Numbered from the stretch's first letter, positions 2,666 to 18,087 are shown. The stretch is DNA of 64,000 nucleotides from Candidatus Gottesmanbacteria bacterium RIFCSPLOWO2_01_FULL_42_22 (GCA_001779315.1 MFJU01000042.1:747-64746), one strand, 5' to 3'. Made by a program: numbers and translations. The notes: a model not told the origin generated them from the letters alone.

Positions 2666-2739
2666 TTAGACCCATAAAATTCCTTGTTGTAACTTTTTAT
2701 TAATAAAAGTATAAAATCCTGATATAATACATAATAATT

Positions 2740-3051: not shown

Positions 3052-3096
3052 ACTTCATAACTAACATTTTCAGAAATAAAAATCGTTATTTTGTAA

Positions 3097-3228: not shown

Positions 3229-3256
3229 AAACAAATAATAATTAATAACCTCAATA

Positions 3257-3286
3257 TTGACATTCTGACAAATTCATCTGTATAAT
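3257..3286 (+). promoter_or_regulatory. sigma70-like promoter TTGACA-N18-TATAAT upstream of brnT
   Basis: TTGACA 3257-3262 and TGTATAAT ending at 3286; ATG at 3298. Confidence 0.5.
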
Positions 3287-3297
3287 GCAGTATATAC

Positions 3298-3844: not shown

Positions 3845-3878
3845 ATCCGAATTAGGTTAAGAAGGGTTCATTTCTTAA

Positions 3879-4000
3879 AAGTTCGGATAATATCCCACAG
3901 GGGGAGCAATTTCTACGGATTTCTTCGGATTTTTTATTTTTATATACTCCATTCGGTTTTCACAGGGTTCAAACTTGGGTATTGTTATAATACTTGATAA
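3879..4000 (+). repeat. intergenic repeat copy D (truncated left module plus full right module with promoter)
   Basis: GGGGGAGCAATTTCTACGGATTTCTTCGGATTTT...TGTTATAAT (3983-3991). Confidence 0.8.
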
Positions 4001-4699: not shown

Positions 4700-4763
4700 G
4701 AATATAAAAAATTGAAAGTTAGACTGTTTTGGAAAAGATAATCTCGCAAGTAGTTTTCAGTTC

Positions 4764-4826
4764 TGATAATGACCGATTGGGGGAGTAATTTCTACGGATT
4801 TCTCCGTTTTTCTTCGGATTTTATAA
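4764..4826 (+). repeat. intergenic repeat copy E (junction plus right module)
   Basis: GGGGGAGTAATTTCTACGGATTTCTCCGTTTTTCTTCGGATTTT. Confidence 0.75.
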
Positions 4827-4868
4827 ATTAATATACAATTATATACTTATCACCTATAATAACCCTTA

Positions 4869-6032: not shown

Positions 6033-6049
6033 GAGAGGAGGCGCGCAAT

Positions 6050-6256
6050 AATTTCCTTATTTCCACCCATCCCTGTCTTAATTCCCCAATATATCTTAAA
6101 TCCTGAAATACCCGGGTAATTGAACTGTAATCTGCGCTTATATTAATCCTAGGGACGGGGAGCACTTTCTACCGATTTCTGCGGATTTTTTATTTTCATA
6201 AACTCCATTCGGTTTTCACAGGGTTCAAACTTGGGTATTGTTATAATACTTGATAA
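6050..6256 (+). repeat. intergenic repeat copy F (full left and right modules)
   Basis: CCACCCATCCCTG...TATTAATCCTAGGGACGGGGAGCACTTTCTACCGATTTCTGCGGATTTT...TGTTATAAT (6239-6247); right part about 96% identical to copy D. Confidence 0.85.
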
Positions 6257-6323
6257 ATGCTTCTTAATGCTAGGGACTAAGGATCCAAAATCTGGATTTA
6301 ATAAAGAGTACGACAGTTTTGAA

Positions 6324-6680
6324 ATGCAGATGGCCAAGCTCAGTGCAAAATTGAAAGGCACGACAGTAGTCGTAAAAGAAGATGGAGAAACCAGCAGCAT
6401 AAAAGTGATCGAAGGTGTGGCAGAAGTCACGGACATACAAACTGGCAAAACAGTTGAGATAAGCGAGGGTAAGATGATTGCCGCGACGGATACAGGCATC
6501 GGCGAGGTACAGGCTTTTGATGTCAACGCTGAAAACGAAAAGTGGCAGGATTTTACAGACGAAATAGGTAAAACAGGTACCAATCAAAAAAACTATCTGT
6601 ATATCTTAGTAATTCCGATAATACTGTTAGCTACTATAATCGCTGTTGTATTAGCATTAAAAAAGAAAAAAAGCGCTTAA
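6324..6680 (+). CDS. truncated paralog of the 4869-6032 C-terminal domain with TM anchor
   Basis: EKWQDFTDEIGKT vs EEKKWQEFADNFKKT plus a C-terminal TM helix. The track ORF at 6231 starts inside the repeat, so start at internal Met 6324 is preferred. Confidence 0.4.
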   Translation: MQMAKLSAKLKGTTVVVKEDGETSSIKVIEGVAEVTDIQTGKTVEISEGKMIAATDTGIGEVQAFDVNAENEKWQDFTDEIGKTGTNQKNYLYILVIPIILLATIIAVVLALKKKKSA

Positions 6681-6714
6681 AGAATTTCACTATTTAAAGA
6701 GTGCCTTCAGGTTG

Positions 6715-6860
6715 AAGTTTTTTAATCTCCTCCCACCTCTGTCTCTGCACTCCAATAAACCGAAAATCCTGAAAAACCCGGATAATTAAACTGAATGAAA
6801 TCGCGGGTTTATTAATCCTAGGGACGGGGAGCAATTTCTACGAATTTACTATGGAGATTG
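6715..6860 (+). repeat. intergenic repeat copy G
   Basis: CTCCTCCCACCTCTG...AAAACCCGGATAATTAAACTGAATGAAATCGCGGGTTTATTAATCCTAGGGACGGGGAGCAATTTCTACGAATTT. Confidence 0.85.
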
Positions 6861-6879
6861 CTTCTAATTTTTAACTTCC

Positions 6880-6888
6880 TGATATAAT
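6880..6888 (+). promoter_or_regulatory. extended -10 TGATATAAT upstream of the YciI-like gene
   Basis: Same 9-mer at 2720-2728 (before 2740) and 20061-20069 (before 20076). Confidence 0.4.
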
Positions 6889-6914
6889 CACCTTATTATT
6901 AACTTCAAAAACTT

Positions 6915-7256
6915 ATGCAATTTCTTGTAATCGGAAAAGACGGCAAAGATGAAAAGGCGCTGGAGCGAAGACTGGTAGCTCGAGAAGCTCATATTAAGTT
7001 GGGTGATGAGATGGAGAAATCAGGTGATCGATGGTATGGAGCGGTTCTTTTGGACGATAACAATAAAATGATAGGGTCTTTGGCAGTGATGGATTTTCCT
7101 TCTGAAAAAGAGTTATATGAATGGCTGAAGCGTGAGCCTTATATAACTGGTAAAGTCTGGGAAACAGTGGAAGTTTATAAATGCAATGTTAAAAATCCCT
7201 GGAAGTTTAGCCGTCCGGAATCTTTCTTTAAGGAAAGAGAAAAACTGAATAAGTAA
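6915..7256 (+). CDS. YciI-like protein
   Basis: 113 aa; MQFLVIGKDGKDEKALERRLVAREAHIK...LLDD pattern typical of YCII-related domain. Confidence 0.55.
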   Translation: MQFLVIGKDGKDEKALERRLVAREAHIKLGDEMEKSGDRWYGAVLLDDNNKMIGSLAVMDFPSEKELYEWLKREPYITGKVWETVEVYKCNVKNPWKFSRPESFFKEREKLNK

Positions 7257-7277
7257 ATTTTCAACTGATGCAATATT

Positions 7278-7559
7278 TTACTGATTCAGGCCAAGTTCCT
7301 GTTTTACCTTCTCACTTAATATAATTTTCACCAGAGATTGATAGGGAACGTCTCTTTTGTTAGCCAGAGTTTTAAGAGCCGCAATAAGCGACTCGGGTAA
7401 TCTGATGGAAACCGTTCTGGTTGACGGTTTAAGATTTTGTAAGACCGGATTAATAATAGCCTGACTCATATCAAAATAATCAGTTAAATCATGGCGTGCA
7501 AAGAAATCTCTTTCCTCATCCTCATTTTTAAATTTAGGTAATTTTTTAATTTGTTTCAT
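7278..7559 (-). CDS. brnA: BrnA-like antitoxin (second copy)
   Basis: KLPKFKNEDEERDFF N-terminus; overlaps BrnT start by 4 nt. Confidence 0.75.
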   Translation of the reverse strand: MKQIKKLPKFKNEDEERDFFARHDLTDYFDMSQAIINPVLQNLKPSTRTVSIRLPESLIAALKTLANKRDVPYQSLVKIILSEKVKQELGLNQ

Positions 7560-7906
7560 TTTGATTTATCACCTCTTTTCTTAATTTGTTTATTGTTTAA
7601 ACTTTCAGCTAATTTATAAGCCAGTTTGTCTTTTTTACCCTGATCCCTTGCCGAAATAATTCTGATTTTGTCTTTTCGAATTGTAAAATATACAGCTAGT
7701 TGTCTGCCTTTGTTAGTTTTACCCAATGCACCCCACCTGTTTTCAGTCTGTGAATGTTGTTTGTTTTCAATGAAAACAAGTGGGTTATTACTGAAAATTT
7801 CTTCACATTCCCGATACTCAACATTATGTTTTGCTTGATTTTTTTTAATATTAGCTTCATCCCAATCAAAACCATGCAACTTATTTAAATCAAAACTTTT
7901 ACTCAT
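7556..7906 (-). CDS. brnT: BrnT-like toxin (second copy)
   Basis: FDWDEANIKKNQAKHNV...RIISARDQGKKD; DUF497 signature. Confidence 0.75.
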   Translation of the reverse strand: MSKSFDLNKLHGFDWDEANIKKNQAKHNVEYRECEEIFSNNPLVFIENKQHSQTENRWGALGKTNKGRQLAVYFTIRKDKIRIISARDQGKKDKLAYKLAESLNNKQIKKRGDKSK

Positions 7907-7950
7907 AGGCTATTTATGTATACAATGGTACAATACATTTAGCCTCATGT

Positions 7951-8050
7951 CAAGGTATGGATAATAGATGTGTAGTCGATGGTTATATTAATCCTAGGGA
8001 CGGGGAGCAAATTCTATGGATTTCTTTGGGTTTCTTCGGATTTATTCGAA
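7951..8050 (+). repeat. intergenic repeat copy H (5'-truncated)
   Basis: TATTAATCCTAGGGACGGGGAGCAAATTCTATGGATTTCTTTGGGTTTCTTCGGATTT. Confidence 0.8.
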
Positions 8051-8054
8051 TTTT

Positions 8055-8393
8055 TCAACCGCTTTTTAATTCACTTTTATAGTACTTCTCAGCAAATTTC
8101 GCGATCTCATTAATAATGGGGAGTATGCCACGCCCTTTTTTAGTTAGTTCATAAACAACTGAAATTTTATCAAGAGTTTCTTCTTTTCTAATGACTATTT
8201 GCTCTTTTTCAAGTTTTTTTAATCTGTCTGCCAGAGTTGTGGGGTTTATGCCAGATATCGACCGTTGAATTTCATTAAACCGCATTGAGCTATTACCTAA
8301 ATTGCTTATTATGCATAAAATCCACGCATCACCAATCATATTGATTGCGTTGTTTAATTCTTCCGGAATATGGCGATTATTACTTGTTGACAT
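8055..8393 (-). CDS. HxlR-family transcriptional regulator
   Basis: 112-aa wHTH; divergent from the quinone oxidoreductase. Confidence 0.7.
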   Translation of the reverse strand: MSTSNNRHIPEELNNAINMIGDAWILCIISNLGNSSMRFNEIQRSISGINPTTLADRLKKLEKEQIVIRKEETLDKISVVYELTKKGRGILPIINEIAKFAEKYYKSELKSG

Positions 8394-8469
8394 ACTATAA
8401 ATAGTGTAGTACTCTATTTTTTAGACTGCTATAAATTATATACTAAATTTTAGGAATAGTCTAACTCTT

Positions 8470-9408
8470 ATGAAAGCTATACAGATTAATAGATACGGCG
8501 GAAACGATGTTTTGGAACTTAACAATAATGCTCCAAAGCCCACCATAAAACAGGGGCAAATATTACTGGAAAATTACGCAGCCAGCGTAAATCCAATTGA
8601 TTGGAAGTTCCGGGCAGGATATTTGCAGAAAATGGCACCGGTTCCTTTGCCGGTTACTCTTGGAGGGGATTTTGCAGGCAAAATCTCAGAAGTAGGAACA
8701 GGTGTTTCTGAATTTAAGGTAGGTGACGAGGTATACGGGCAAGCAATTATTTTAAATGGTGGTTCCGGATCATTTGCTGAACAAGTTTCAGCAAATGCCG
8801 AAAATACCGCTCTTAAACCAAAAACAGCGAGTTTCGAGGAAGCAGGAGCTTTGCCACTTGTTGGAGTCAGCGCTTTGCAAGCTTTAGGAGAGCATATCAA
8901 ATTGAAAAGTGGGCAAAAAATCCTTGTCCATGGTGGAGCAGGAGGTATTGGACACATGGCGGTCCAATTGGCAAAAGTGTTTGGTGCATATGTTGCAACA
9001 ACCATAAAGACAGATGATGTGGAGTTTGTAAAAAATCTTGGTGCGGATCAAGCGATTGATTACAAAACTCAAAAATTTGAAAATATTCTTAAAGACTTTG
9101 ATGCGGTTTTTGATACAGTAGGTAGTGAAACAACAGATAAATCATTTGGAGTTCTCAAAAAAGGAGGAGTAATTGTATCTATGTTTGGAGAGCCGAATCA
9201 AGAGTTGGCACAAAAATATGGAGTTACTGCTATTGGGCAAGGAACACGAACTGATACTGTTCATTTAGCTCGCATCGCAGAAATTGTTGATAGTGGAAAA
9301 ATAAAAGTGCATCTTGATAAAGTTTTTTCGTTCGAAAACGCGAAAGAAGCATTTATATATCAGGAAGAAGTTCATCCTCGAGGTAAAGTTGTCATAAAAA
9401 TCAAATAA
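8470..9408 (+). CDS. NADPH:quinone oxidoreductase (MDR / zinc-ADH superfamily)
   Basis: MKAIQINRYGG...GGAGGIGHMAVQLAK Rossmann motif; 312 aa. Confidence 0.75.
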   Translation: MKAIQINRYGGNDVLELNNNAPKPTIKQGQILLENYAASVNPIDWKFRAGYLQKMAPVPLPVTLGGDFAGKISEVGTGVSEFKVGDEVYGQAIILNGGSGSFAEQVSANAENTALKPKTASFEEAGALPLVGVSALQALGEHIKLKSGQKILVHGGAGGIGHMAVQLAKVFGAYVATTIKTDDVEFVKNLGADQAIDYKTQKFENILKDFDAVFDTVGSETTDKSFGVLKKGGVIVSMFGEPNQELAQKYGVTAIGQGTRTDTVHLARIAEIVDSGKIKVHLDKVFSFENAKEAFIYQEEVHPRGKVVIKIK

Positions 9409-9429
9409 ATACCGGTCTTTTTGTCTTTT

Positions 9430-9468
9430 TAACCCCATCCCTTCTCAGTCTCAATTCTCCTATATACC
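9430..9468 (+). repeat. intergenic repeat copy I (left-end fragment only)
   Basis: AACCCCATCCCTTCTCAGTCTCAATTCTCC resembles the 5' end of copies B and F. Confidence 0.45.
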
Positions 9469-9514
9469 TTGTTGACATCATAGTGGACATACTATATGAT
9501 ATTTACATATAGAT

Positions 9515-9889
9515 ATGCCAAAAGTAACAATTTCAAAACCAAGATCATTTGGTAATGTTGAAAAGTTTATTGAGCCTTGTATTCTTCTTCTTTTATCTAA
9601 AGATTCCTCTCACGGGTATGGTCTCATGGATGGTTTGGGGAAACATTGCGGTCACAATGTTGATATCGGCAATCTTTACCGCACGCTACGTAAGATGGAG
9701 AAAAATAAATGGATAGTTTCCGACTGGCAAAAGAATAAGATAGGACCTGATAAACGGACATACAAAATTTCTCCAAACGGAGTGACGATATTACACGAAG
9801 CGGCTTCATCGCTTAAAACCGCACAGCGTCTTCTCTCCCGGTTTCGAAATGGTTATAACAGGATTTATGATAATGGAGTAACTGTATGA
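9515..9889 (+). CDS. PadR-family transcriptional regulator
   Basis: LLLLSKDSSHGYGLMDGL...YRTLRKMEKNKWI pattern. Confidence 0.6.
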   Translation: MPKVTISKPRSFGNVEKFIEPCILLLLSKDSSHGYGLMDGLGKHCGHNVDIGNLYRTLRKMEKNKWIVSDWQKNKIGPDKRTYKISPNGVTILHEAASSLKTAQRLLSRFRNGYNRIYDNGVTV

Positions 9890-10209
9890 AGCTTACAATT
9901 GTGCTTTCCACAACTCATACAGAAACCAACTGGAATGCTTTAAGACTAGCCAATCTGGCTTTGAAAAAGGGAGATGAGGTGAGTTTATTTCTTTTAGGTG
10001 AAGCAGTTGAGTATGAAAATGCCAGTAGTGATAGGTTTAATATAAAGCAGCAAATTGATACTTTTCTAAAATCAGATAAAGCAAAAATTGTCGCCTGCGG
10101 AACCTGTATGAATTTAAGAAACCAGGAAAGCACGCAAACCTGTCCTAGGGGAGGATTGGAGGATTTTTATTCTCTTATATCAACAAGTGACAAAGTATTA
10201 ACATTTTAA
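9886..10209 (+). CDS. DsrE/DsrF-like protein
   Basis: 107 aa; KIVACGTCMNLR; overlaps the PadR stop. Confidence 0.55.
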   Translation: MKLTIVLSTTHTETNWNALRLANLALKKGDEVSLFLLGEAVEYENASSDRFNIKQQIDTFLKSDKAKIVACGTCMNLRNQESTQTCPRGGLEDFYSLISTSDKVLTF

Positions 10210-10217
10210 ATTACAGA

Positions 10218-10832
10218 ATGAAAAAGTTAATCGTACTCGTTTTGCTTGCTGCATTTCTTATTAATCCTTCTGCAATTTTTGCCCAACCAATGACAGGTAA
10301 GCAATTTCAATCTGCTACTGATGATCATACAGCCGGTGAAGAAGCGGAGGGAAAAGAAATATGGGAAAGATTACAGTCGAAGCAAATAATTTGCAATGAA
10401 CTTTCATATGGAAACTTCGGTTCTTTAGGAGAATACTATATGGGTCAAATGGTAGGAGATACCGGCAGGCATGCAGTGATGAATCAAATGATGACGGCAA
10501 TGTTAGGAGAGACAAGCGAAGAAAAGATGCATGTAGTAATGGGGAAAAGAATGAGCGGTTGTTATACCGGGACGAAGGGAGGTGGTAATCCGATGATGGG
10601 TTATGGTTGGAATAACATGATGGGCGGTTGGGGAGGTTTTGGTTTAGGCTGGGTATTTATGATTTTATTCTGGGCGCTGATTATTTTGGGCGTAGTTGGA
10701 CTTATTCGTTATTTAAGCGGGCAACACAATGCGGATAAGGGTAAAACCCCTCTGGATATTCTTAGAGAACGCTATGCAAAAGGCGAGGTAGACAAAAAGG
10801 AATTTGAAGAAATGAAGAAGGATTTAAGATAA
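10218..10832 (+). CDS. secreted/membrane Gly/Met-rich protein with C-terminal SHOCT domain
   Basis: Signal peptide; TM helix; C-terminal LRERYAKGEVDKKEFEEMKKDL. Confidence 0.5.
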   Translation: MKKLIVLVLLAAFLINPSAIFAQPMTGKQFQSATDDHTAGEEAEGKEIWERLQSKQIICNELSYGNFGSLGEYYMGQMVGDTGRHAVMNQMMTAMLGETSEEKMHVVMGKRMSGCYTGTKGGGNPMMGYGWNNMMGGWGGFGLGWVFMILFWALIILGVVGLIRYLSGQHNADKGKTPLDILRERYAKGEVDKKEFEEMKKDLR

Positions 10833-10876
10833 AATTTTTAAGAAAATCAGACCGGGTTTGCAGTCTCTTTATCTCT

Positions 10877-11242
10877 TCATAACCTTTTATTGGCCATTGC
10901 ATCAGCGCGTTTTTTACCCCAGTCACAGGCAAGTTTTAGAATAGGTGTTAAAGTTTGTCCTGCAGGTGTTAATGAATATTCAACTTTTGGAGGAATTTGT
11001 CTATATATTTTTCTTGAAACGATATTATCTCCTTCGAGTTCCCGTAGCTGGCGAGTCAGCATCCTTTGACTGCAATCTGGTATAAGTTTTCGCAATTCTC
11101 CAAATCGCTTTTTGCCATCAACTAGGTTCCAAAGAATTAGTGTTTTCCACTTGCCTCCAATTAACTCAAGTGTAAATGCAATGTAGCAGAAGTAATTTTT
11201 ATCCCCGACAGTGAAGTTTGCCATTGGTATACAAAATGTCAC
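10877..11242 (-). CDS. HxlR-family transcriptional regulator
   Basis: LELIGGKWKTLILWNL...RMLTRQLRELEGDNIVSRK. Confidence 0.7.
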   Translation of the reverse strand: MTFCIPMANFTVGDKNYFCYIAFTLELIGGKWKTLILWNLVDGKKRFGELRKLIPDCSQRMLTRQLRELEGDNIVSRKIYRQIPPKVEYSLTPAGQTLTPILKLACDWGKKRADAMANKRL

Positions 11243-11320
11243 TATACAACAATTTTGTGCGTACTTGCAAGAATAAAATTAGGGTTTAACATAAATAAAA
11301 GATAAGGAGGTGAATATAAA

Positions 11321-11683
11321 ATGGATAAGAAAATGGAAGTAAAAAATTTTACCTCTCCGGATGAAGTGAGGACATTCGAAAAGGGAAAGGTAGAACTGGT
11401 TAAAATCGGAGGCGCAATGGTTGGCAAAGCAACTTTTGAACCGGGATGGAAATGGTCTTTACATGTAAAATCACTGGCTAAAACTGAATGGTGCGAAGCT
11501 CCCCATTTCCAATACCTTATTTCGGGAACATTACACGTAGTAATGGCTGACGGTACTGAAACAGACTTAAAACCCGGCAGTGTATCCCTGCTGCCATCAG
11601 GCCATGATGCTTGGGTGGTTGGAAACGAACCGGTAGTTGGGGTAGATTTTCAGGGAATGGTTGACTACGCAAAAAAAGCTTAA
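11321..11683 (+). CDS. cupin domain protein
   Basis: 120-aa cupin_2-like; divergent from HxlR; Shine-Dalgarno AAGGAGG upstream. Confidence 0.6.
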   Translation: MDKKMEVKNFTSPDEVRTFEKGKVELVKIGGAMVGKATFEPGWKWSLHVKSLAKTEWCEAPHFQYLISGTLHVVMADGTETDLKPGSVSLLPSGHDAWVVGNEPVVGVDFQGMVDYAKKA

Positions 11684-11785
11684 AGACCAAATTATTAGAA
11701 TACACAACGTATATGATTGCAAGTAGCCCATCGGAAAAATTCGAAGGGTTGCTTTATGAAAAATTAACTATTGTCCGGATTGCAG

Positions 11786-11900
11786 TTTCCTAATCTTCTC
11801 CCACTGTTGTCGTAATTCCCCAATAATCTTCAAGTCCTGAAAAACCCGGATTATTGAGGTAAAATCGCGGGTTTATTAATCCTCAGGTACGGGGAGCATT
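11786..11900 (+). repeat. intergenic repeat copy J (left module)
   Basis: CTTCTCCCACTGTTGTCGTAATTCCCCAATAATCTTCAAGTCCTGAAAAACCCGGATTATTGAGGTAAAATCGCGGGTTTATTAATCCTCAGGTACGGGGAGCA. Confidence 0.85.
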
Positions 11901-12006
11901 TGATATCCCTCTGTTTGGAGTCAGGATGGTGTGAGCTCCCGAATGAGGGATTATTTAAGGAGAAAATAGAAAAAGAAAATGACTAAATTTGAAGCTAAAA
12001 GAGAAC

Positions 12007-12034
12007 CGTCCCCTATACTACGTCCCCTATACTA
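12007..12034. repeat. tandem 14-bp direct duplication CGTCCCCTATACTA x2
   Basis: Seen directly, immediately left of the GC-richer 12.1-14.9 kb segment. Confidence 0.7.
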
Positions 12035-12107
12035 TAATTACAGTTAACCTGATATTTCGTAATAGGAAGCCGAAATAGGCAGTCTCTCACTGCTGGGCTC
12101 AGCTGTC

Positions 12108-12695
12108 TTACCAGTCTTTCGGATCTGACCAGTGGGTTCTAGCCATCACCGCTACTTCGAAATTCGGATCATCTTTGGCTTGTAATCCAACCTTTGCTAC
12201 CGGATTGTTTCCGCCTCCGAAATTTCTGGTGACCACTTTAGCACCAAGGCTGTCCGCTGCAGAATTTGCACTCTCCAGCAATTTATCCAGCAAGCCCTGC
12301 GGGTCATCAGTGACGAAATCCAGATGCATCCCTCTCACGCCATTGCCTTCTTTTCCGGCTCTATGGAATTCAACGAATATATCTTGGCCGCCCTCAACCG
12401 GAATCCTCAGGTATCTTCTGAAATGGGTGACGCCGCCGGCAACCAGGTTATTGGCGATAAGCTTGTCACCGAATTGGCCTGTTGCTTCTTCAAATGATTT
12501 ATTATCGGGATAAGTTATGCCGATGTGATGGTAAAAAGTAGGGTGACCGGCTGCCCATTCGCTGACAGGAGTCAGCAGGGCATTGAGAAAATCAGGTCTT
12601 TCGATAATTTTTTCCGCAGGGCTCATTCCCTCCCTGATGGTTTCGTCTCTTAACCCGGTAATGGAGCTGACTGTATTTAAAATATTTTCATTCAT
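12108..12695 (-). CDS. hypothetical protein
   Basis: 195-aa ORF in a locally GC-richer segment; no family recognised. Confidence 0.3.
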   Translation of the reverse strand: MNENILNTVSSITGLRDETIREGMSPAEKIIERPDFLNALLTPVSEWAAGHPTFYHHIGITYPDNKSFEEATGQFGDKLIANNLVAGGVTHFRRYLRIPVEGGQDIFVEFHRAGKEGNGVRGMHLDFVTDDPQGLLDKLLESANSAADSLGAKVVTRNFGGGNNPVAKVGLQAKDDPNFEVAVMARTHWSDPKDW

Positions 12696-12721
12696 AGAGT
12701 TTTATATAATATTGATAATGA

Positions 12722-13723
12722 TTACCGGACGACCCTTACCTCCAGGGGCAGCTCGATATTATGTTCTTTTAATACTACTTCCTGGATTAAGTCCGCGACT
12801 CTTAGATAACCCTCTGCCGAGCCGCTGCCTGTATTCCCGATAATATTGGCCGTAGATTTTGCATGGACCATTCCGCCGATCATGATAGTCTCCGGAAGTC
12901 TTCCGGTCATGCCGATAAGCTGCGTGGCCGATATTCCGTTGTATCCGGGATGGTTAAGCACGAATGTATAACCCAATGTTGCGCCGACCGACCACGGGTT
13001 TTTTTCCTTGTTCTTTTTCCTCATTTCCTGACGGCCTAAATTGATGACCGTTCTGGCTTTGGCGATTTTTTCCGGATCTCCTTCTGCCAGCTGGAACATC
13101 ACGTTAAGGACTATTTTTGTATTATCCGGTTGCGAAAAAACACTTTGGCGGTCATGCATTTCCAGCTGTGACGTGTCCATCCGCACGACATCACCGTTTT
13201 CATCGACAACCTCGACCCAACTCAAAACCTGTCTTATAGATTCAGGCAGTTCGGTATCAGTGATCCCAAACGCTTCGAAGATTTTCGTATAGTTATGAAT
13301 CGGATGCCAGGCATCCGTCACTACCGCCCCGGCTGTGCTGCCGGGAATATCCCTGGCAAATTCCAGTCCGGTTAGATTACCACTTGCCGATTCTCTGGAA
13401 ACTGCCGAAATTTTAGTTCCGCCCCCCGCGCAGATTTGTGCGGTTCCTATATTCAGATGGATACCGTTCATCTTACGGCTGTCAATTACGACAGTTTTCA
13501 TGGGATCCAGTTCGGTACCCATTAAAAGCGTATTGCTGCCACCGCCGTGAACATGAAAGGTCTGCTGGTGATCATTAAGCAGCCGGTGTAATGTGGAAGC
13601 CTGTTCTGTATTGGGATAGACAACCAGCTGCGCCCGGCTTTTGAGCAGGGTTGAGCTTACTTCCGCATTATTGACAAAATCAATACCCAATGATTGCAGG
13701 CCTGTCTCCAGTCTTGAAAGCAT
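12722..13723 (-). CDS. murB: MurB-like FAD-binding oxidoreductase (UDP-N-acetylenolpyruvoylglucosamine reductase family)
   Basis: HVHGGGSNTLL and LTGLEFARDIPGSTAGAV motifs match the MurB FAD-binding domain; C-terminal MurB_C-like region. Confidence 0.6.
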   Translation of the reverse strand: MLSRLETGLQSLGIDFVNNAEVSSTLLKSRAQLVVYPNTEQASTLHRLLNDHQQTFHVHGGGSNTLLMGTELDPMKTVVIDSRKMNGIHLNIGTAQICAGGGTKISAVSRESASGNLTGLEFARDIPGSTAGAVVTDAWHPIHNYTKIFEAFGITDTELPESIRQVLSWVEVVDENGDVVRMDTSQLEMHDRQSVFSQPDNTKIVLNVMFQLAEGDPEKIAKARTVINLGRQEMRKKNKEKNPWSVGATLGYTFVLNHPGYNGISATQLIGMTGRLPETIMIGGMVHAKSTANIIGNTGSGSAEGYLRVADLIQEVVLKEHNIELPLEVRVVR

Positions 13724-13930
13724 AGACCTATAATATACACATATATATATTATAAGTCAAACTATAAATGATTACCCGAAATTACTTTAATATCTGGAAA
13801 TAAGCATTATTAGTTGACCTTTATGAAAATATATGATAAAATCAACGAACCTTATAATAGAATTTATAAGGTTATTTAATATAATAATGTATCCCTCAGT
13901 AAGTCGGGGGATTTTTTTAATAAACGAAAT

Positions 13931-14887
13931 ATGTTCAAAGGCGAATTACAACCGGACGGAGTCTCCCTGATAGCGGGACCCTGTTCCATAGACCCGGAAA
14001 ATGTCCATCAGATTTACCAGATGGCCGATATCCGGATCAGGAACAAGAAAGGTGACTGGGTGCCCGCCCTGGCCGGAGCCAGGATTGTCGGCCTTAAATC
14101 AAGGACGGAATTCAATGCCACAGGTGATGGAATGGGTATCGATTTTCAGATCCTTGACGGTTTTATAACCAACAAAAATATCGGTGAGACCCCTCCCAGT
14201 GTCCTGATGGCTAAAGAATTCATAAAGGAAACCGGCATGGGCACTGCTGCGGAAGTCATGATCCCTGAAGCTCAAATGTACTATTATGAACAGAATCTTT
14301 CCAAAGGCAAGTTTTTTCCCTGGACTCCTGCCGTAAGCGCACTCGGTTGGCCGGCCAGGCAGATAGGCATCACCGCAGCCAGAAATGACTGGACTGTCGG
14401 GCTGAAGAATCCTAAGTGGCTTGGCCAGAGCCTGGATGACATCGAAAAAGGCAAATGCCAGACAATGAGTTCCATGGAAAAAACCTGGCGTGGCCTGGCT
14501 AATTTTGCCTCTTCTGCGGGTGCGGAAATCGCTTTCGTACACAGGGGTGTCGACATAGATGGCAAAGGAAAAATGAGGAATGCGCTGGTTCATGAAATAG
14601 TCCGGAGTCTAGCCAGGACTGCCCCTCAGACCGGCCGGTATTTTGACCCCAGCCACAGTTATGGACCTGACATGCAGGACTGCATAGTCGCCGAAACAAT
14701 CAGGACAATGAAGATGAGGGTAAACGGTGACAACGGACCGTATCTTTATACCGGCATATTGGTCGAAGTGGGTGATTCCACGACCGATACCAAACAGCAT
14801 ATCTCAGTCAGCGATTTGCAGAACTTAGCCAGGGAAATTTCTCAATTTAGGCCTTTTATTGTCCCCAAATCACATTACCTAATGTAA
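13931..14887 (+). CDS. DAHP synthase / KDO8P synthase family PEP-aldolase
   Basis: LIAGPCSID, VGLKNPKW and DPSHSYG motifs characteristic of class I-beta DAHPS/KdsA family. Confidence 0.55.
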   Translation: MFKGELQPDGVSLIAGPCSIDPENVHQIYQMADIRIRNKKGDWVPALAGARIVGLKSRTEFNATGDGMGIDFQILDGFITNKNIGETPPSVLMAKEFIKETGMGTAAEVMIPEAQMYYYEQNLSKGKFFPWTPAVSALGWPARQIGITAARNDWTVGLKNPKWLGQSLDDIEKGKCQTMSSMEKTWRGLANFASSAGAEIAFVHRGVDIDGKGKMRNALVHEIVRSLARTAPQTGRYFDPSHSYGPDMQDCIVAETIRTMKMRVNGDNGPYLYTGILVEVGDSTTDTKQHISVSDLQNLAREISQFRPFIVPKSHYLM

Positions 14888-15044
14888 GTCTGCAGTCAGT
14901 TCGGGGTAGCAATTCTAAATTTCAGCACGATTGTTTCCAAAAGGGATTCTCATAACTTCATTATTGTTCTCCGGTGTCAGTACATCCTTATTATTATGCT
15001 TATCTGTTTGTGGGGGATATCATTAGCAAATCCATTATTTCAAT

Positions 15045-15263
15045 GTGTCCGTTGTATGGAGGAGATTTAATATCAGCGACAGAATGATTCAGAAAATCAT
15101 CGGGGAAGAGGCAACAGAGACGGTTATTGCGGCTAAAAATAATAAGAAGAAAAGAATTATTGAAGAAACTGCTGATTTATTCTTCCACTTGCTTGTACTT
15201 CTTTCTCAATTTGATATAAAACCGGATGAAATGGAAATGGAATTACAAAAGCGGAAAAAATAG
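15045..15263 (+). CDS. HisE/MazG-like NTP pyrophosphohydrolase fragment
   Basis: GEEATETVIAAKNNKKKRIIEETADLFFHLLVLL resembles phosphoribosyl-ATP pyrophosphatase. GTG start; too short for full HisE, so possibly truncated. Confidence 0.4.
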   Translation: MSVVWRRFNISDRMIQKIIGEEATETVIAAKNNKKKRIIEETADLFFHLLVLLSQFDIKPDEMEMELQKRKK

Positions 15264-15289
15264 CTTTTAAAATTTAATATGTAGGTAGT

Positions 15290-15483
15290 AGCTTCCTAAT
15301 CTCCTCCCACTGTTGTCGTAATTCCCCAACCTGCCTGCCGGCAGGCAGGTATACTTCAAGTCCTGAAACACCCGGATAATTAAGGTGAAATCGCGGGTTT
15401 TTTAATCCCAGGGACGGGGAGCACATTCACTTCGTTCAGTATAAACAATTTCTACGGATTTCTTTGGGTTTCATCGGAATTTC
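15290..15483 (+). repeat. intergenic repeat copy K (full, with palindrome 15330-15349 and 24-bp insertion at junction)
   Basis: CTCCTCCCACTGTTGTCGTAATTCCCCAACCTGCCTGCCGGCAGGCAGG...CGCGGGTTTTTTAATCCCAGGGACGGGGAGCA...ATTTCTACGGATTTCTTTGGGTTTCATCGGAATTT. Confidence 0.85.
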
Positions 15484-15916
15484 ATTTGACGTCTTTTTGG
15501 AGTACATCTTTAAGAAAATTCCTTGCTTTCATAATTTTAATTCCCTCATAATCTCCAATATCAAGTAAATCTCTGTCTCCTGAAATTATATATGAAGCAG
15601 ATCCTTCTATTGCTGCTGCGATAAATTTATTATCATCGGGATCATCCTTGACGATGTCAACTTCTAAAGCTCCGGAAGTAATTATTGTTTGAGTTGATAG
15701 TGCTTGAATCATATCTTGAATGTCCTCAGGTTTAAGAAAGAAATGAGATTGTATTTCTTTCCGATCCAGGACTTCTTTTATTTCTGAAAGAATTGGAATT
15801 GAAGTGATTAATAAAAATTCTTTCTTACGCCATCCCTCAAGTAAACGATGGGGTATAGTATTTGATTTAGCGGTACCGGAAATAACCAGATTTGTATCAA
15901 TAACCACTCTTAGCAT
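15482..15916 (-). CDS. PIN-domain toxin (VapC-like)
   Basis: VVIDTNLVISG N-terminus, conserved acidic residues; overlaps the upstream antitoxin. Confidence 0.7.
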   Translation of the reverse strand: MLRVVIDTNLVISGTAKSNTIPHRLLEGWRKKEFLLITSIPILSEIKEVLDRKEIQSHFFLKPEDIQDMIQALSTQTIITSGALEVDIVKDDPDDNKFIAAAIEGSASYIISGDRDLLDIGDYEGIKIMKARNFLKDVLQKDVK

Positions 15917-16211
15917 GTTTTGTTCTTCTGACAGCTTTTACAGCCTCATTTACAATCCGTTCCACTTCTTTAGCAGGGATGCCTTTTGTCCTGGCACGAA
16001 TTCTATCAAAAACTTTAAATCCTTTTTTCCATTCCTCATTGGTGAATCTTTTAGTGGGATCTGTTAAAAATTCATACTCTTTGTAATCTATAAGAACAGC
16101 CTGGGGTTTATTAAAGCGGGTGATAATCACTTTTGTTTTCCCATAGACAGCAGTATTCAGTATCTCTGAGAACTTGTTTCTGGCATCCTGAGCGCTTACT
16201 GTTTGTGTCAT
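15897..16211 (-). CDS. Phd/YefM-type antitoxin
   Basis: SAQDARNKFSEILN...VIITRFNKPQAVLI. Confidence 0.65.
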   Translation of the reverse strand: MTQTVSAQDARNKFSEILNTAVYGKTKVIITRFNKPQAVLIDYKEYEFLTDPTKRFTNEEWKKGFKVFDRIRARTKGIPAKEVERIVNEAVKAVRRTKHAKSGY

Positions 16212-16320
16212 AAAATCCTCCTGTAGGCTACATACTAGTACAAAATGTAAGTATTGTCAAGAAGTTACAAAATAGACAGAGAATTGCTACCAAAAGCTCA
16301 TTTAGAATTTAGAATATTTC

Positions 16321-16458
16321 AGCTTCTTTATTTCCTCCCATCTTAGCCTAAACTCTCCAACCTGCCTGCCGGCAGGCAGGTATACTTCAAATTCTAAAAA
16401 GCCCGGATAAGTGAAGTGAAATCGCGGGTTTATTAATCCTCAGGAGGGGAGCAGGTTG
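16321..16458 (+). repeat. intergenic repeat copy L (left module with palindrome 16361-16380)
   Basis: ...CCAACCTGCCTGCCGGCAGGCAGGTATACTTCAAATTCTAAAAAGCCCGGATAAGTGAAGTGAAATCGCGGGTTTATTAATCCTCAGGAGGGGAGCA. Confidence 0.8.
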
Positions 16459-16551
16459 GTTCTTGCGCAAAGGGATTGCGCCTGAGGCAGAATACATAAA
16501 TTGACTTTCATGCCTAGTTTTGCCAAACTATTTATAAAGGAGGTGATTTAA

Positions 16552-16743
16552 ATGAATATGAATGCAATGTTTAAAGAATGTGTGAAACCGCACGCACTTG
16601 TACATTCACTTACGGGAGCTGCTGTTGCTTTTTTACTTTTATATTTTGTCCCGGGCTTAATTGATAAGCTATTAGTGCTCGGCATAATATTATTTGTTGC
16701 AGCCTTTATTTTGGAGTTTTTTGTTAACCCAGCACGAAAATAA
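16552..16743 (+). CDS. small membrane protein
   Basis: 63 aa with two hydrophobic helices; Shine-Dalgarno AAGGAGG upstream. Confidence 0.3.
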   Translation: MNMNAMFKECVKPHALVHSLTGAAVAFLLLYFVPGLIDKLLVLGIILFVAAFILEFFVNPARK

Positions 16744-16875
16744 TAATTTAAGAAGCGATTAAAAATGTTCCCCTTGCAGCGTTTTTCCATCCAAAGTCAT
16801 TAAATTATCTCCGATCATATTCGGAACATGTGCTGCAAGTCCTATTCCTGCGATTGGGCTAAACGCATCCTTAAC

Positions 16876-18087
16876 TTATAGCTCGCACTGAGTTTCGGCT
16901 TCGGCGCTGCAGGTATCTGTCGCTGCGCCGCCGTTCGCATAGTCGCTGCCCTGTTGACCGTCAAGCATATCGTTGCCTGTCTCGCCTTTGAGAGAATCAG
17001 ACCCGATGCCTCCCCAAAGATCATCATTGCCCGCATTGCCGTTAAGCGCGTCATTCCCATCTTCTCCGTATAAGTCATCCTGACCGGCGTTTCCGCTAAG
17101 ACTGTCGCCGTCAGTTCCTCCCAGGATGACATCGTTACCTGCGCCTCCTTTTAAATCATCGCCTCCGGTTCCCCCGACAATACAATCATTACCGCCATTG
17201 CCATTGACGATATCACTGCTGCCTTTGGCTAATATCAAATCAGGTCCACCCGTACCGTTGAGTATTTCGCTTCCGTTTGTACCTTCGATTAAATTATAGG
17301 CAACAGATTGGTTGCACTCTAAAGGTACCGGGAATGGGTTAATCGGATCCGCTGTAACTTTAATATGGTAAGGATTTATCGCATCATTGCTCCAGGCGGA
17401 TTCGTCAGGAGAAGAGTTTTTTGCCTTCACCCGGAGGTAATAATCACCGGGTGGCGTCCCCGGTGTCGGAATTTCAGAAGCAGATAACCAACCGCTTAGA
17501 TATACGGAACTTGTGTAAATGGCATCGGAAAAAGCTTCATATTGATACTCAAAAGGCGGGTTAAAGCCTGTAGAATCCGTCCAATCAACTTTTATTAAAG
17601 CAGATTGTGTAACAGTTACTCCGTTTCCGGGAGTGTGTATTAAAGGAACGGAAACTCCTTTTGTAATACTCCAAGTGCCCGTTCTGGTGCCGCCGAAATC
17701 ATCCGTCCAAGTACCGGAAACTGTTCCATCAGGAGCTACAGTACCTGTCATACTCATTATTGTTCCCGCTGCGCCCAAATCATAAGCAACGGTAAGACTA
17801 AGTGTATCTGCTGTTTGCGTACCGGAGGTGACATTCCAATGGAAAGTATCTCCGCCGCTTGCCGGAAATCCTCCGTCCCCGGTAACAGTTGTTGAGCTCT
17901 GGGCTAGTGTCGCATGATGAACGTAAGGTGTAGCCGATAGATCTCCATCCAGAAAAAAGGTGATTTCGTAATTGCCCGTCACATTCCAGGGTGCTACAGC
18001 AGTAGCTGATATGGCAAAATTAACAAGAAGCAAAACTGAAGCTATAAAAACGGTAAAAAAAAGTTTTATTTTATTCATATTTATCAC
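16876..18087 (-). CDS. secreted calcium-binding protein with RTX-like GGxGxD repeats
   Basis: N-terminal signal peptide; C-terminal tandem GNGGNDCIVGGTGGDDLKGGAGNDVILGGTDGD repeats. Confidence 0.6.
   Translation of the reverse strand: MINMNKIKLFFTVFIASVLLLVNFAISATAVAPWNVTGNYEITFFLDGDLSATPYVHHATLAQSSTTVTGDGGFPASGGDTFHWNVTSGTQTADTLSLTVAYDLGAAGTIMSMTGTVAPDGTVSGTWTDDFGGTRTGTWSITKGVSVPLIHTPGNGVTVTQSALIKVDWTDSTGFNPPFEYQYEAFSDAIYTSSVYLSGWLSASEIPTPGTPPGDYYLRVKAKNSSPDESAWSNDAINPYHIKVTADPINPFPVPLECNQSVAYNLIEGTNGSEILNGTGGPDLILAKGSSDIVNGNGGNDCIVGGTGGDDLKGGAGNDVILGGTDGDSLSGNAGQDDLYGEDGNDALNGNAGNDDLWGGIGSDSLKGETGNDMLDGQQGSDYANGGAATDTCSAEAETQCEL

What the first reader, a model, noticed from the sequence alone, without database searches (positions are those of the whole stretch)
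12007..14900. GC-richer segment with MurB-like reductase, DAHP/KDO8P-synthase-family aldolase and an unknown 195-aa protein, bounded by a 14-bp tandem duplication
The segment ~12.1-14.9 kb is visibly more GC-rich than its neighbours. It carries:
- A divergent pair of a MurB-like FAD oxidoreductase (GGGSN, LTGLEFARDIPGSTAGAV) and a PEP-utilising DAHPS/KdsA-family enzyme (LIAGPCSID, VGLKNP, DPSH).
- An unknown ORF.

A PEP-aldolase next to an enolpyruvyl/FAD reductase suggests a small sugar-acid or enol-ether pathway rather than canonical aromatic biosynthesis, which reduced genomes usually lack. A tandem repeat CGTCCCCTATACTA x2 sits at 12007-12034 at the left boundary, and repeat copies J and K flank the whole block.

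The alternative is that these are simply conserved housekeeping genes, in which case the higher GC reflects conservation and murB lies oddly outside a dcw cluster.
Basis: partly seen in the sequence, partly recalled or inferred. Interest (0 to 1): 0.55.

Follow-up and report, generated by a model that had tools for sequence, protein, structure and literature searches.

The report
Rare MurB-like enzyme pair beside DAHP synthase
In this candidate-phyla-radiation (Gottesmanbacteria) genome, an ordinary-looking but very divergent DAHP synthase gene sits next to a rare, always-paired MurB-like flavin reductase and a new glyoxalase-fold metal enzyme; the three probably form an uncharacterised small pathway, and the segment is neither a mobile island nor plain cell-wall housekeeping.

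Summary
There are three intact genes:
- A, 12108-12695 (-)
- B, 12722-13723 (-)
- C, 13931-14887 (+)

Their GC is 0.48-0.50, against a window gene mean of 0.41. An exact 14-bp x2 tandem sits at 12007-12034.

**C** is a type I-beta DAHP synthase of a CPR-specific clade, not KdsA. It has the right fold and all four metal ligands. Its relatives sit inside complete shikimate/aromatic operons.

**B** has the MurB fold and keeps the catalytic Arg and Glu. It scores far below the MurB equivalog cut-offs, and its Ser loop, NAGAYG motif and HANF His are remodelled. It belongs to a tiny family: 11 clusters in 5.8 billion proteins.

**A** is a new VOC-fold protein with an invariant His/Glu/His. It lies next to B in every locus recovered.

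Of 8 lineages, a DAHPS gene lies beside the pair in 5, from two unrelated DAHPS lineages. A D-2-hydroxyacid dehydrogenase lies beside it in 5.

The substrate is unknown.

The tandem repeat is one-sided. The flanking repeats belong to an 8-copy intergenic family with no integrase nearby. The module's GC tracks the host GC in the other loci. This is not a recent island.

Whether the genome has another murB could not be tested.

The parts
13931..14887 (+). Gene C: a 318-aa metal-dependent DAHP synthase, type I-beta-like, of a CPR-specific clade
   Evidence: - The protein itself has no Pfam or NCBIfam hit.
- 182 homologues were found in Microgenomates, many carrying PF00793.
- The family profile hits only DAHPS I-beta among PDB sequences.
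- The AF2 model has pLDDT 91.6.
- Invariant residues C18, K56-S-R58-T59, K159, R205, H242, E279 and D286 align with the Cys/His/Glu/Asp metal ligands of the T. maritima and P. furiosus enzymes.
- Relatives lie in aromatic operons.
12722..13723 (-). Gene B: a 333-aa MurB-fold FAD-dependent reductase of a small divergent subfamily
   Evidence: - Pfam FAD_binding_4 at 2e-15 plus MurB_C at 3e-8.
- All NCBIfam murB equivalogs score far below their cut-offs.
- It is 24-33% identical to canonical MurB.
- Only 11 clusters were found in 5.8e9 proteins, and 1 of 185,579 species genomes.
- R192 and E328 are conserved. The NAGAYG motif is replaced by DAWHPIHNY plus an 18-aa insert. The Ser loop carries a 6-aa insert. 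The HANF His is replaced by Thr.
12108..12695 (-). Gene A: a 195-aa protein of a new VOC-fold (glyoxalase/dioxygenase-like) family with a putative metal site. It is the obligate neighbour of B.
   Evidence: - No Pfam, NCBIfam or PDB sequence hit, even with a profile.
- 10 relatives were found among 1.84e9 representative proteins.
- The AF2 model has pLDDT 88.6.
- Invariant residues: H57, G59, R93, Y95, E109, H124 and D126.
- It is adjacent to B in all loci recovered.
13724..13930 (.). Divergent control region between B and C. It holds promoter-like hexamers on both strands and a two-hairpin leader before C.
   Evidence: - On the - strand, TTGACT-17-TATATT lies at 13760-13732 and ends 8 nt before the ATG of B.
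- On the + strand, TTGACC-17-(TG)TAAAAT lies at 13814-13842.
- A terminator-like hairpin at 13891-13912 followed by a T-run lies just upstream of the ATG of C.
- The leader at 13843-13935 folds into two hairpins, with a z-score of -2.6.
- These are consensus matches only. Function is inferred. No Rfam family matches.
12007..12034 (+). Exact 14-bp tandem duplication (CGTCCCCTATACTA x2) in the spacer downstream of A. It was checked and is judged incidental, not a boundary.
   Evidence: It is unique in the window and present on one side only. Other short 2-copy tandems occur elsewhere, for example at 52803-52827 and 62204-62237.

Best explanation
**Where the segment comes from.** It lies on a chromosomal contig of a Candidatus Gottesmanbacteria (CPR, Microgenomates) genome. 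It holds three functional enzyme genes.

**Gene C (shown by sequence and structure).** C is the lineage's DAHP synthase. It is a metal-dependent type I-beta enzyme that condenses PEP with erythrose-4-phosphate. It belongs to a CPR-specific clade so divergent that standard profiles miss it.

**Genes B and A (shown by comparative genomics).** They form a rare, co-inherited two-enzyme unit. In other genomes this unit is usually joined by a D-2-hydroxyacid dehydrogenase. It is repeatedly placed next to a DAHPS gene from either of two unrelated DAHPS lineages. I read this as an accessory pathway fed by DAHPS, not the peptidoglycan MurB step.

**Proposed mechanism (inferred).**
- All the partners handle a carboxylate with an oxygen on C2: a 2-oxo acid, a 2-hydroxy acid, or an enol ether.
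- A binds the carboxylate and 2-oxo/2-oxy oxygens on a His57/Glu109/His124 metal site. It promotes enolisation, isomerisation or elimination, as VOC enzymes do.
- B takes a hydride from NAD(P)H via FAD and reduces the C=C of the resulting 2-O-substituted acrylate (enolpyruvyl-type) group. It uses the retained Arg192/Glu328 pair to stabilise the enolate, as MurB does.
- Where present, the 2-hydroxyacid dehydrogenase interconverts the 2-oxo and 2-hydroxy forms.
- The substrate is most likely DAHP, or an enolpyruvyl ether made further down the shikimate pathway (EPSP or chorismate).

**Repeats and GC.** The GC excess is ordinary gene-to-gene heterogeneity. The 14-bp tandem and the flanking repeats are unrelated intergenic features.
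For: **Identity of the genome.** All three proteins match hypothetical proteins A3J20_05065, A3J20_05070 and A3J20_05075 of Cand. Gottesmanbacteria RIFCSPLOWO2_02_FULL_42 at 100%.

**C is a DAHPS**
- Fold ranking places DAHPS I-beta first.
- The family profile hits only DAHPS I-beta in the PDB.
- The Cys/His/Glu/Asp ligands and a K-S-R-T motif are conserved.
- Homologues at 42-50% identity lie inside trpBA-DAHPS-pheA-tyrA-aroB-aroA-aroK-aroE-aroD type operons.

**B and A form a unit**
- A homologues lie directly next to B homologues in the window and in L009, L010/13/16, L012, L014, L015, L018, L094, L095 and L096.
- Gaps are 6-26 nt when co-directional. When convergent, the 3' ends lie 4 nt apart or overlap by 4 nt.
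- Their divergence is congruent. B is 54/46/45% identical and A is 50/38/35% identical to the same three loci.

**Link to DAHPS and the dehydrogenase**
- C-type DAHPS is adjacent in the window and in L009.
- A different DAHPS I-beta-like type (23-26% identical to C, no BLASTP hit) is adjacent in L010, L012 and L095.
- The dehydrogenase is adjacent in L009, L010, L012, L094 and L095.

**B is not a standard MurB**
- It scores far below the equivalog cut-offs.
- Conserved loops are remodelled.
- The family is extremely rare.
- It was never seen next to mur genes.

**B keeps reductase chemistry.** The Arg/Glu pair that binds the enolpyruvyl carboxylate in E. coli MurB (PMC12844806) is conserved.

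**A is a VOC metalloenzyme.** This rests.

**Not an island.** This rests.
Against: - No biochemical data exist, and the substrate is a guess.
- I could not check whether these genomes carry another, canonical murB. If they do not, B is probably the cell-wall enzyme.
- At least one public record names this same protein as UDP-N-acetylenolpyruvoylglucosamine reductase.
- The dehydrogenase partner is absent from all 64 kb of this window.
- In one lineage (L014/L015/L018) the B-A pair stands alone, with unrelated neighbours. The DAHPS link is therefore frequent but not obligatory.
- Only 8 lineages were seen, and three of them (L010, L012, L095) share one gene arrangement. There are about 3 independent associations, not 5.
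- The Asn equivalent to the diphosphate-binding N233 of E. coli MurB is mostly retained. A nucleotide-sugar substrate is therefore not excluded.
- C-type DAHPS linked to the module is not a separate clade. C may simply serve aromatic biosynthesis.
Confidence: 0.55

Rival explanations
1. **Plain housekeeping.** B is this lineage's very divergent peptidoglycan MurB and C is its aromatic-pathway DAHP synthase. A is an unrelated conserved neighbour. The adjacency is inherited synteny without shared function.
For: - B has the full MurB domain architecture and the Arg/Glu pair.
- At least one public record annotates it as MurB.
- No second murB was seen on any contig that carries B, although only a few kb to 64 kb was visible per genome.
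- C relatives lie in aromatic operons.
- murB often lies outside dcw clusters in well-studied bacteria (my own knowledge).
- The module's GC is host-like in the other loci.
Against: - The B family is extremely rare. It has 11 clusters in 5.8e9 proteins, and 1 hit among 185,579 species genomes that include thousands of CPR genomes. A housekeeping MurB of Microgenomates should be common.
- The B-A pairing survives strand inversion.
- DAHPS genes of two unrelated lineages have been recruited next to the pair. Simple inherited synteny is unlikely to produce this.
- Motifs invariant in the canonical MurBs compared here (NAGAYG, the HANF His, the Ser loop) are replaced.
Confidence: 0.25
2. **Recently acquired genomic island or cassette.** The 3.4-kb GC-rich block was inserted by recombination at the flanking ~130-nt repeats, as an integron- or MITE-like cassette. 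The 14-bp duplication is an insertion scar.
For: - Direct repeats at 11784-11912 and 15290-15418 flank the block.
- GC is 6 points above the rest of the window.
- The neighbourhood is rich in accessory genes: a PIN/Phd toxin-antitoxin pair, HxlR and PadR regulators, and an RTX protein.
- The same repeat follows several small + strand ORFs, in the manner of attC sites.
Against: - The repeat has at least 8 copies in most intergenic spacers between 2.6 and 16.5 kb. Flanking this block is therefore expected.
- The repeats do not fold into attC-like long imperfect hairpins (z-scores -2.0 to +1.1).
- The candidate upstream ORF at 785-1660 has no integrase or any other Pfam domain.
- The 14-bp repeat is tandem on one side, not a pair of target-site duplications.
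- Several other genes in the window are equally GC-rich.
- In seven other organisms the module's GC matches its host.
Confidence: 0.07
3. **Sugar-acid pathway for a surface glycan.** C is a KdsA/NeuB-like ulosonic-acid synthase rather than a DAHPS. B and A then tailor a 3-deoxy-ulosonic acid, or a lactyl-ether sugar, for a cell-surface polysaccharide.
For: - Glycosyltransferase genes lie a few genes from the module in L010. An NTP-transferase gene lies three genes beyond C in L009.
- MurB-type reductases are the expected route to lactyl-ether sugars (my own knowledge).
Against: - The family profile finds only DAHPS among PDB sequences, and no KDO8PS or NeuB.
- The motif is K-S-R-T (DAHPS KPRT-like), not KANRS (the motif assignment is from my own knowledge).
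- Relatives sit in aromatic operons.
- No MurA-like enolpyruvyl transferase and no CMP-sugar synthetase is adjacent in any locus.
Confidence: 0.07

Closest known systems
MurB, UDP-N-acetylenolpyruvoylglucosamine reductase (type II, e.g. S. aureus 1HSK, Listeria 3TX1)
   Same: - FAD_binding_4 plus MurB_C architecture, and the GGGSN and GLEFxxxIPG motifs.
- The conserved Arg (Y-R-x-S region) and the C-terminal Glu that hold the enolpyruvyl carboxylate.
- It probably performs the same kind of flavin-mediated C=C reduction.
   Different: - Only 24-33% identical to canonical MurB, and 102 bits against a 259-bit equivalog cut-off.
- NAGAYG is replaced by DAWHPIHNY plus an 18-residue insertion.
- The catalytic Ser loop carries a 6-residue insertion.
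- The HANF His is replaced by Thr.
- It is always paired with a VOC-fold protein, never seen with mur genes, and extremely rare.
Type I-beta DAHP synthase (P. furiosus 1ZCO, T. maritima 1RZM/1VR6 catalytic domain)
   Same: - The Cys/His/Glu/Asp metal site, a KPRT-like motif, and the DPSH motif.
- An unadorned catalytic core without regulatory domains, like the P. furiosus enzyme.
- Aromatic-operon context in relatives.
   Different: - About 20% identity.
- Missed by Pfam and NCBIfam models.
- Forms a CPR (Microgenomates) clade of its own.
- In this genome it is not next to any other aro gene within 64 kb.
YecM and other single-chain VOC enzymes (glyoxalase I, methylmalonyl-CoA epimerase, the HPPD/HMS C-terminal domain, HglS/DUF1338)
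   Same: - Paired beta-alpha-beta-beta-beta modules.
- Invariant His on beta1, Glu on beta4 and His on beta5, where VOC enzymes bind their metal.
   Different: - No detectable sequence similarity to any Pfam VOC family or any PDB chain.
- An extra N-terminal helical segment.
- Additional invariant residues Arg93, Tyr95 and Asp126.
- Function and metal are unknown.
Secondary-metabolite clusters that carry their own DAHPS copy (e.g. phenazine phzC) (my own knowledge)
   Same: A DAHPS gene is placed beside tailoring enzymes, presumably to feed them.
   Different: Here the DAHPS is not a separate paralogous clade. The partners are a MurB-like reductase, a VOC protein and a 2-hydroxyacid dehydrogenase. 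No other pathway enzymes are adjacent.

Membership tests
MurB (UDP-N-acetylmuramate dehydrogenase) | FAD_binding_4 plus MurB_C two-domain architecture | tested here: met
   Pfam PF01565 at 2.1e-15 and PF02873 at 3e-8, both above their gathering scores.
MurB (UDP-N-acetylmuramate dehydrogenase) | Score above the curated equivalog cut-off | tested here: not met
   PRK13905 scores 102.2 against 259. TIGR00179 scores 83 against 144.5. The five other MurB models listed also score far below their cut-offs.
MurB (UDP-N-acetylmuramate dehydrogenase) | The Arg and Glu that bind the enolpyruvyl carboxylate (E. coli R159/E325; PMC12844806) | tested here: met
   R192 aligns with S. aureus R188, and E328 aligns with E308. 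In the 11-member family, E is invariant and R is present in 10 of 11, with K in P0127.
MurB (UDP-N-acetylmuramate dehydrogenase) | Proton-donor Ser in the (S/C)(A/C)GS loop (E. coli S229; PMC9865890) | tested here: inconclusive
   The loop carries a 6-residue insertion (SVGKTLGYSFVLNHP). HMMER aligns the Ser with Y252. MAFFT aligns it with A/K248. A conserved S/T253 lies one residue away and could substitute.
MurB (UDP-N-acetylmuramate dehydrogenase) | The conserved N-A-G-A-(Y/F)-G motif and the His of the HANF motif | tested here: not met
   NAGAYG is replaced by DAWHPIHNY plus an 18-aa insertion. The His is replaced by an invariant Thr291.
MurB (UDP-N-acetylmuramate dehydrogenase) | Residues that bind the UDP diphosphate (E. 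coli K217, N233; PMC12844806) | tested here: inconclusive
   The position equivalent to K217 is variable (K/N/L/R). The position equivalent to N233 is Asn in 8 of 11 members. The equivalences depend on an uncertain loop alignment.
MurB (UDP-N-acetylmuramate dehydrogenase) | Only murB of a peptidoglycan-making genome, or reduces UDP-GlcNAc-enolpyruvate | not testable with these tools
No second murB lies on the contig parts held. Activity needs an assay.
DAHP synthase type I-beta (DAHP_synth_1) | TIM-barrel fold closest to DAHPS I-beta | tested here: met
   [not shown]
DAHP synthase type I-beta (DAHP_synth_1) | Cys/His/Glu/Asp metal ligands plus the PEP- and phosphate-binding Lys/Arg | tested here: met
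   C18, H242, E279 and D286 are invariant in 20 family members. They align with the ligands of the T. maritima and P. furiosus enzymes. K56-S-R58-T59, K159 and R205 are also invariant. Their roles are assigned from my own knowledge of the family.
DAHP synthase type I-beta (DAHP_synth_1) | Match to the curated family models | tested here: not met
   The window protein has no Pfam or NCBIfam hit at E <= 0.1. Many relatives carry a weak precomputed PF00793 hit.
DAHP synthase type I-beta (DAHP_synth_1) | Genomic context with shikimate/aromatic genes | tested here: inconclusive
   Met for relatives at 42-50% identity. Not met in this window, where no aro genes occur in 64 kb.
KDO8P synthase (KdsA) | Best sequence and structure match to KDO8PS | tested here: not met
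   No KDO8PS appears among the PDB profile hits. It is structurally ranked below three DAHPS I-beta entries.
VOC superfamily (glyoxalase/bleomycin resistance/dioxygenase) | Paired beta-alpha-beta-beta-beta modules with metal ligands on beta1, beta4 and beta5 | tested here: met
   [not shown]
VOC superfamily (glyoxalase/bleomycin resistance/dioxygenase) | Sequence match to a described VOC family (PF00903, the YecM family, DUF1338 and others) | tested here: not met
   None of the 15 family members matches any such Pfam model at E <= 1. The family profile finds no PDB chain.
Integron cassette or repeat-bounded mobile island | A recombinase nearby, attC-like folding of the repeats, and target-site duplications at both ends | tested here: not met
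   The neighbouring ORFs scanned carry no integrase domain. The repeats fold weakly. The 14-bp repeat is tandem and one-sided.

The most novel reading that the evidence does not exclude
The B-A pair, with the 2-hydroxyacid dehydrogenase, is a previously unknown branch off the first step or steps of the shikimate pathway in a few CPR bacteria. On this reading B would be a second kind of enolpyruvyl (2-alkoxy-acrylate) reductase. Its substrate would not be UDP-GlcNAc-enolpyruvate but EPSP, chorismate or a dehydrated form of DAHP. The product would be a lactyl-ether or deoxy-ulosonate metabolite of unknown role, possibly in organisms that lack the rest of the aromatic pathway.
Probability: 0.2. 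Interest if true: 0.7.

Novelty: new variant of a known kind. Interest (0 to 1): 0.5.

Why it matters
MurB is regarded as a one-job enzyme: it performs the second committed step of peptidoglycan synthesis. A distinct MurB-fold subfamily that keeps the enolate-stabilising residues would extend MurB-type chemistry beyond the cell wall. This one has a rebuilt substrate pocket, an obligate VOC-fold partner and a recurrent link to DAHP synthase.

It would also give CPR bacteria, whose metabolism is thought to be minimal, an unexpected small-molecule pathway.

Independently, the result matters for annotation:
- A whole clade of CPR DAHP synthases is invisible to Pfam and NCBIfam. Aromatic-amino-acid capacity in Microgenomates may therefore be under-called.
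- B is named MurB in at least one public record without meeting the family threshold.

Tried and rejected
**Hypotheses tested and rejected**
- *Integron or cassette array.* The ~130-nt repeats follow several + strand ORFs, like attC sites. They do not fold as attC-like hairpins. The upstream ORF at 785-1660 has no integrase domain.
- *The 14-bp tandem as an island boundary.* It is unique and one-sided.
- *Atypical GC as a sign of horizontal transfer.* Other window genes are equally GC-rich. The module's GC follows its host in seven other loci.
- *Module-linked C-type DAHPS as a neofunctionalised subclade.* The NJ tree interleaves them with aromatic-operon copies.

**Searches that found nothing useful**
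- Rfam and tRNA scans of the window and of the locus found nothing.
- A search for aro genes, a canonical murB, a Mur ligase or the 2-hydroxyacid dehydrogenase in the 64-kb window found none.
- Searches of plasmid and viral collections for A or B found only canonical MurBs at 23-28% identity, or nothing.
- Literature searches for a MurB-like/DAHPS pairing, or for the CPR shikimate pathway, found nothing relevant.

- The afdb50 fold library was unavailable.
- The first tree script timed out.
- The genomic context of the distant A homologues P0134-P0141 could not be fetched, because the look-ups were exhausted.

Full report
**What is there**

The region holds three intact, non-overlapping ORFs:
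- A, 12108-12695 (-), 195 aa
- B, 12722-13723 (-), 333 aa
- C, 13931-14887 (+), 318 aa

B and A are co-directional and 26 nt apart. B and C diverge from a 207-nt spacer. All three are 100% identical to the hypothetical proteins A3J20_05065, A3J20_05070 and A3J20_05075 of Candidatus Gottesmanbacteria bacterium RIFCSPLOWO2_02_FULL_42, a CPR (Microgenomates) genome. They lie on contigs of up to 129 kb.

**The observation**

*GC content.* The segment is GC-richer than its immediate neighbours.
- The 1-kb bins are 0.43-0.48 GC; the neighbours are 0.37-0.39.
- The genes are 0.476, 0.487 and 0.495 GC, against a mean of 0.411 (sd 0.044) over 66 ORFs.
- GC3 is 0.47-0.55, against 0.41 (sd 0.08).
- This is 1.5-1.9 sd above the mean. 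Several other genes in the window are equally GC-rich, for example 49015-49842, 51321-52724 and 52861-53433.

*Tandem repeat.* The exact tandem CGTCCCCTATACTA x2 is at 12007-12034. It has no other copy. It lies on one side of the block only.

*Flanking repeats.* The repeats at 11784-11912 and 15290-15418 are two of at least eight same-strand copies of a ~130-nt intergenic element scattered between 2.6 and 16.5 kb.

**Gene C**

C has no Pfam, NCBIfam or PDB hit of its own. It has 182 homologues, and those that carry an organism name come from Gottesman-, Roizman-, Woese- and Dojkabacteria. Many carry a weak PF00793 (DAHP_synth_1) hit.

Sequence and structure place it with DAHPS I-beta:
- A profile of 20 family members finds only type I-beta DAHP synthases in the PDB (T. 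maritima, P. furiosus, A. pernix, Listeria, Geobacillus). It finds no KDO8PS or NeuB.
- The invariant residues C18, H242, E279 and D286 align with the Cys/His/Glu/Asp metal ligands of the solved enzymes. K56-S-R58-T59, K159 and R205 are also invariant.

Context in relatives is canonical:
- P0021 (44% identical) lies in trpB-trpA-[C]-pheA-CM/tyrA-aroB-aroA-aroK-aroE-aroD.
- P0032 lies beside pheA, tyrA, an aminotransferase, aroA-aroK and aroC.
- P0016 (50% identical) lies beside chorismate mutase, an aminotransferase and a tyrA/pheA fusion.

C is therefore best read as the CPR version of DAHP synthase. In this window, however, no other aro gene occurs within 64 kb.

**Gene B**

B has the MurB architecture, FAD_binding_4 plus MurB_C. 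It scores 102 bits against a cut-off of 259 for the best murB equivalog. It is 24-33% identical to canonical MurBs.

Its family is tiny:
- 11 clusters at 43-54% identity among 5.8 billion proteins.
- One hit, a Pacebacteria MAG, among 185,579 species genomes.
- A gap down to about 30% identity with ordinary MurBs in metagenomes.

I aligned B with six canonical MurBs and S. aureus 1HSK.
- Retained: the Arg (R192, matching S. aureus R188 and E. coli R159) and the C-terminal Glu (E328, matching E308 and E325). These hold the enolpyruvyl carboxylate (PMC12844806).
- Changed: NAGAYG is replaced by DAWHPIHNY plus an 18-residue insertion.
- Changed: the loop carrying the proton-donor Ser (E. coli S229; PMC9865890) has a 6-residue insertion, so its equivalent is ambiguous.
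- Changed: the His of HANF is an invariant Thr.

B thus keeps the core of the reductase chemistry but has a rebuilt substrate site.

**Gene A**

A is an orphan by ordinary searches. It has 10 relatives among 1.84 billion representative proteins.

The invariant H57, E109 and H124 sit on the strands where VOC enzymes bind their metal. R93, Y95 and D126 are also invariant.

**The decisive comparative result**

Every recovered B homologue has an A homologue directly next to it.
- Co-directional, with 6-26 nt gaps: the window, L009, L014, L015, L018, L094 and L096.
- Convergent, with 3' ends 4 nt apart or overlapping by 4 nt: L010/L013/L016/L017, L012 and L095.

A D-2-hydroxyacid dehydrogenase (glyoxylate-reductase-like) is adjacent in L009, L010, L012, L094 and L095.

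A DAHPS gene is adjacent in five of eight lineages.
- It is C-type in the window and in L009.
- It is a different I-beta-like type in L010, L012 and L095. That type is 23-26% identical to C and gives no BLASTP hit to it.

Three limits apply:
- In one lineage (L014/L015/L018) the pair stands alone.
- The dehydrogenase is absent from this window.
- The module-linked C-type proteins are interleaved with aromatic-operon ones in a neighbour-joining tree.

The recruitment of two unrelated DAHPS lineages, and the persistence of B-A adjacency through inversion, argue for functional coupling rather than inherited synteny.

**Proposed mechanism (inferred)**

All four enzymes act on carboxylates that bear an oxygen on C2.
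- DAHPS makes a 2-oxo-3-deoxy acid from PEP.
- VOC enzymes chelate vicinal oxygens on a metal and promote enolisation, isomerisation or elimination.
- MurB-type enzymes deliver a hydride from reduced FAD to the C=C of a 2-alkoxy-acrylate. An Arg/Glu pair stabilises the enolate.
- 2-Hydroxyacid dehydrogenases interconvert 2-oxo and 2-hydroxy acids.

The most economical substrates are DAHP (after A-assisted enolisation or dehydration) or the enolpyruvyl ethers made further along the shikimate pathway (EPSP, chorismate). None of this has been shown.

**Rivals**

*Housekeeping MurB plus DAHPS, with A as a bystander (0.25).* This cannot be excluded, because the full MAGs could not be searched for a second murB. 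At least one public record does call this protein MurB. The rarity of the family, its remodelled motifs and its contexts argue against it.

*A repeat-bounded island or integron cassette (0.07).* The evidence against it:
- The repeat copy number is high.
- The repeats fold weakly.
- No integrase is present.
- The tandem repeat is one-sided.
- The module's GC tracks host GC from 0.33 to 0.50 in seven other loci.

*A KdsA/NeuB-type sugar-acid pathway (0.07).* The DAHPS-specific evidence for C argues against it.

**Regulatory detail**

The B-C spacer has good promoter-like hexamers on both strands.
- The one for B ends 8 nt before its ATG.
- The one for C lies about 80 nt upstream of its ATG. It is followed by two hairpins, and the second resembles a terminator with a T-run.
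- No Rfam family matches.

This could be an attenuator for DAHPS. That is inference only.

**Verdict**

C is a known kind of enzyme in an unrecognised clade. B plus A is a new variant of known enzyme kinds, forming an uncharacterised and very rare module. Interest is moderate (0.5). No literature on this pairing was found.

Noticed in passing
window 2597-2663, 3093-3226, 6090-6169, 6764-6833, 7959-8014, 11784-11912, 15290-15423, 16321-16453: A dispersed ~130-nt intergenic repeat, with all 8 copies on the + strand. It mostly lies 27-101 nt after + strand ORFs. It has a conserved 3' core (CCCGGATAATTGA...ATCGCGGGTTTATTAATCCTAGGGACGGGGAGCA). Three copies carry an optional, perfectly palindromic 22-nt insert (ACCTGCCTGCCGGCAGGCAGGT). 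It has no Rfam match and does not fold like an attC site. Its nature is unknown.
   Followed up: partly
window 3909-3932, 4788-4821, 6166-6188, 8012-8053: Short 10-bp tandem arrays (ATTTCTACGG / TTCTTTGGAT, 2-3.6 copies). Two of them lie directly at the 3' end of copies of the dispersed repeat.
   Followed up: no
window 13843-13930: The leader of the DAHPS gene has two hairpins. The second (13891-13912) is terminator-like with a T7 run, about 19 nt before the ATG. It is a possible transcription attenuator. No Rfam family matches.
   Followed up: partly
window 15482-16211 (-): A PIN-domain toxin (15482-15916) overlaps a Phd/YefM antitoxin (15897-16211), forming a type II toxin-antitoxin pair just right of the block. 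A 72-aa PRA-PH/MazG-like ORF lies at 15045-15263.
   Followed up: no
window 1-17000 versus 17000-64000: The left quarter of the window has markedly lower GC3 (0.21-0.39 for most genes). It is rich in small accessory genes (zeta-toxin-like kinase, RibD_C, FecR, PadR, DsrE, SHOCT, HxlR, cupin) and contains all copies of the dispersed repeat. It may be a flexible genome region.
   Followed up: partly
L004 5102-6897 and L005 149-1944: In another Microgenomates lineage the C-type DAHPS gene overlaps by 4 nt the end of a PfkB-family sugar kinase gene and has no aro genes nearby. This is another non-canonical context for this DAHPS clade.
   Followed up: no
protein P0135: A 1569-aa protein matches residues 44-83 of A in 13 separate stretches. 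This segment holds the helix that precedes the HHxG strand, plus that strand. It looks like a repeat protein built from part of the A fold.
   Followed up: no
L014 159-1064: In the lineage where the B-A pair stands alone, the upstream gene is a 301-aa ORF that I read by eye as primase-like; it was not searched. This hints that the pair may sit in mobile DNA there.
   Followed up: no
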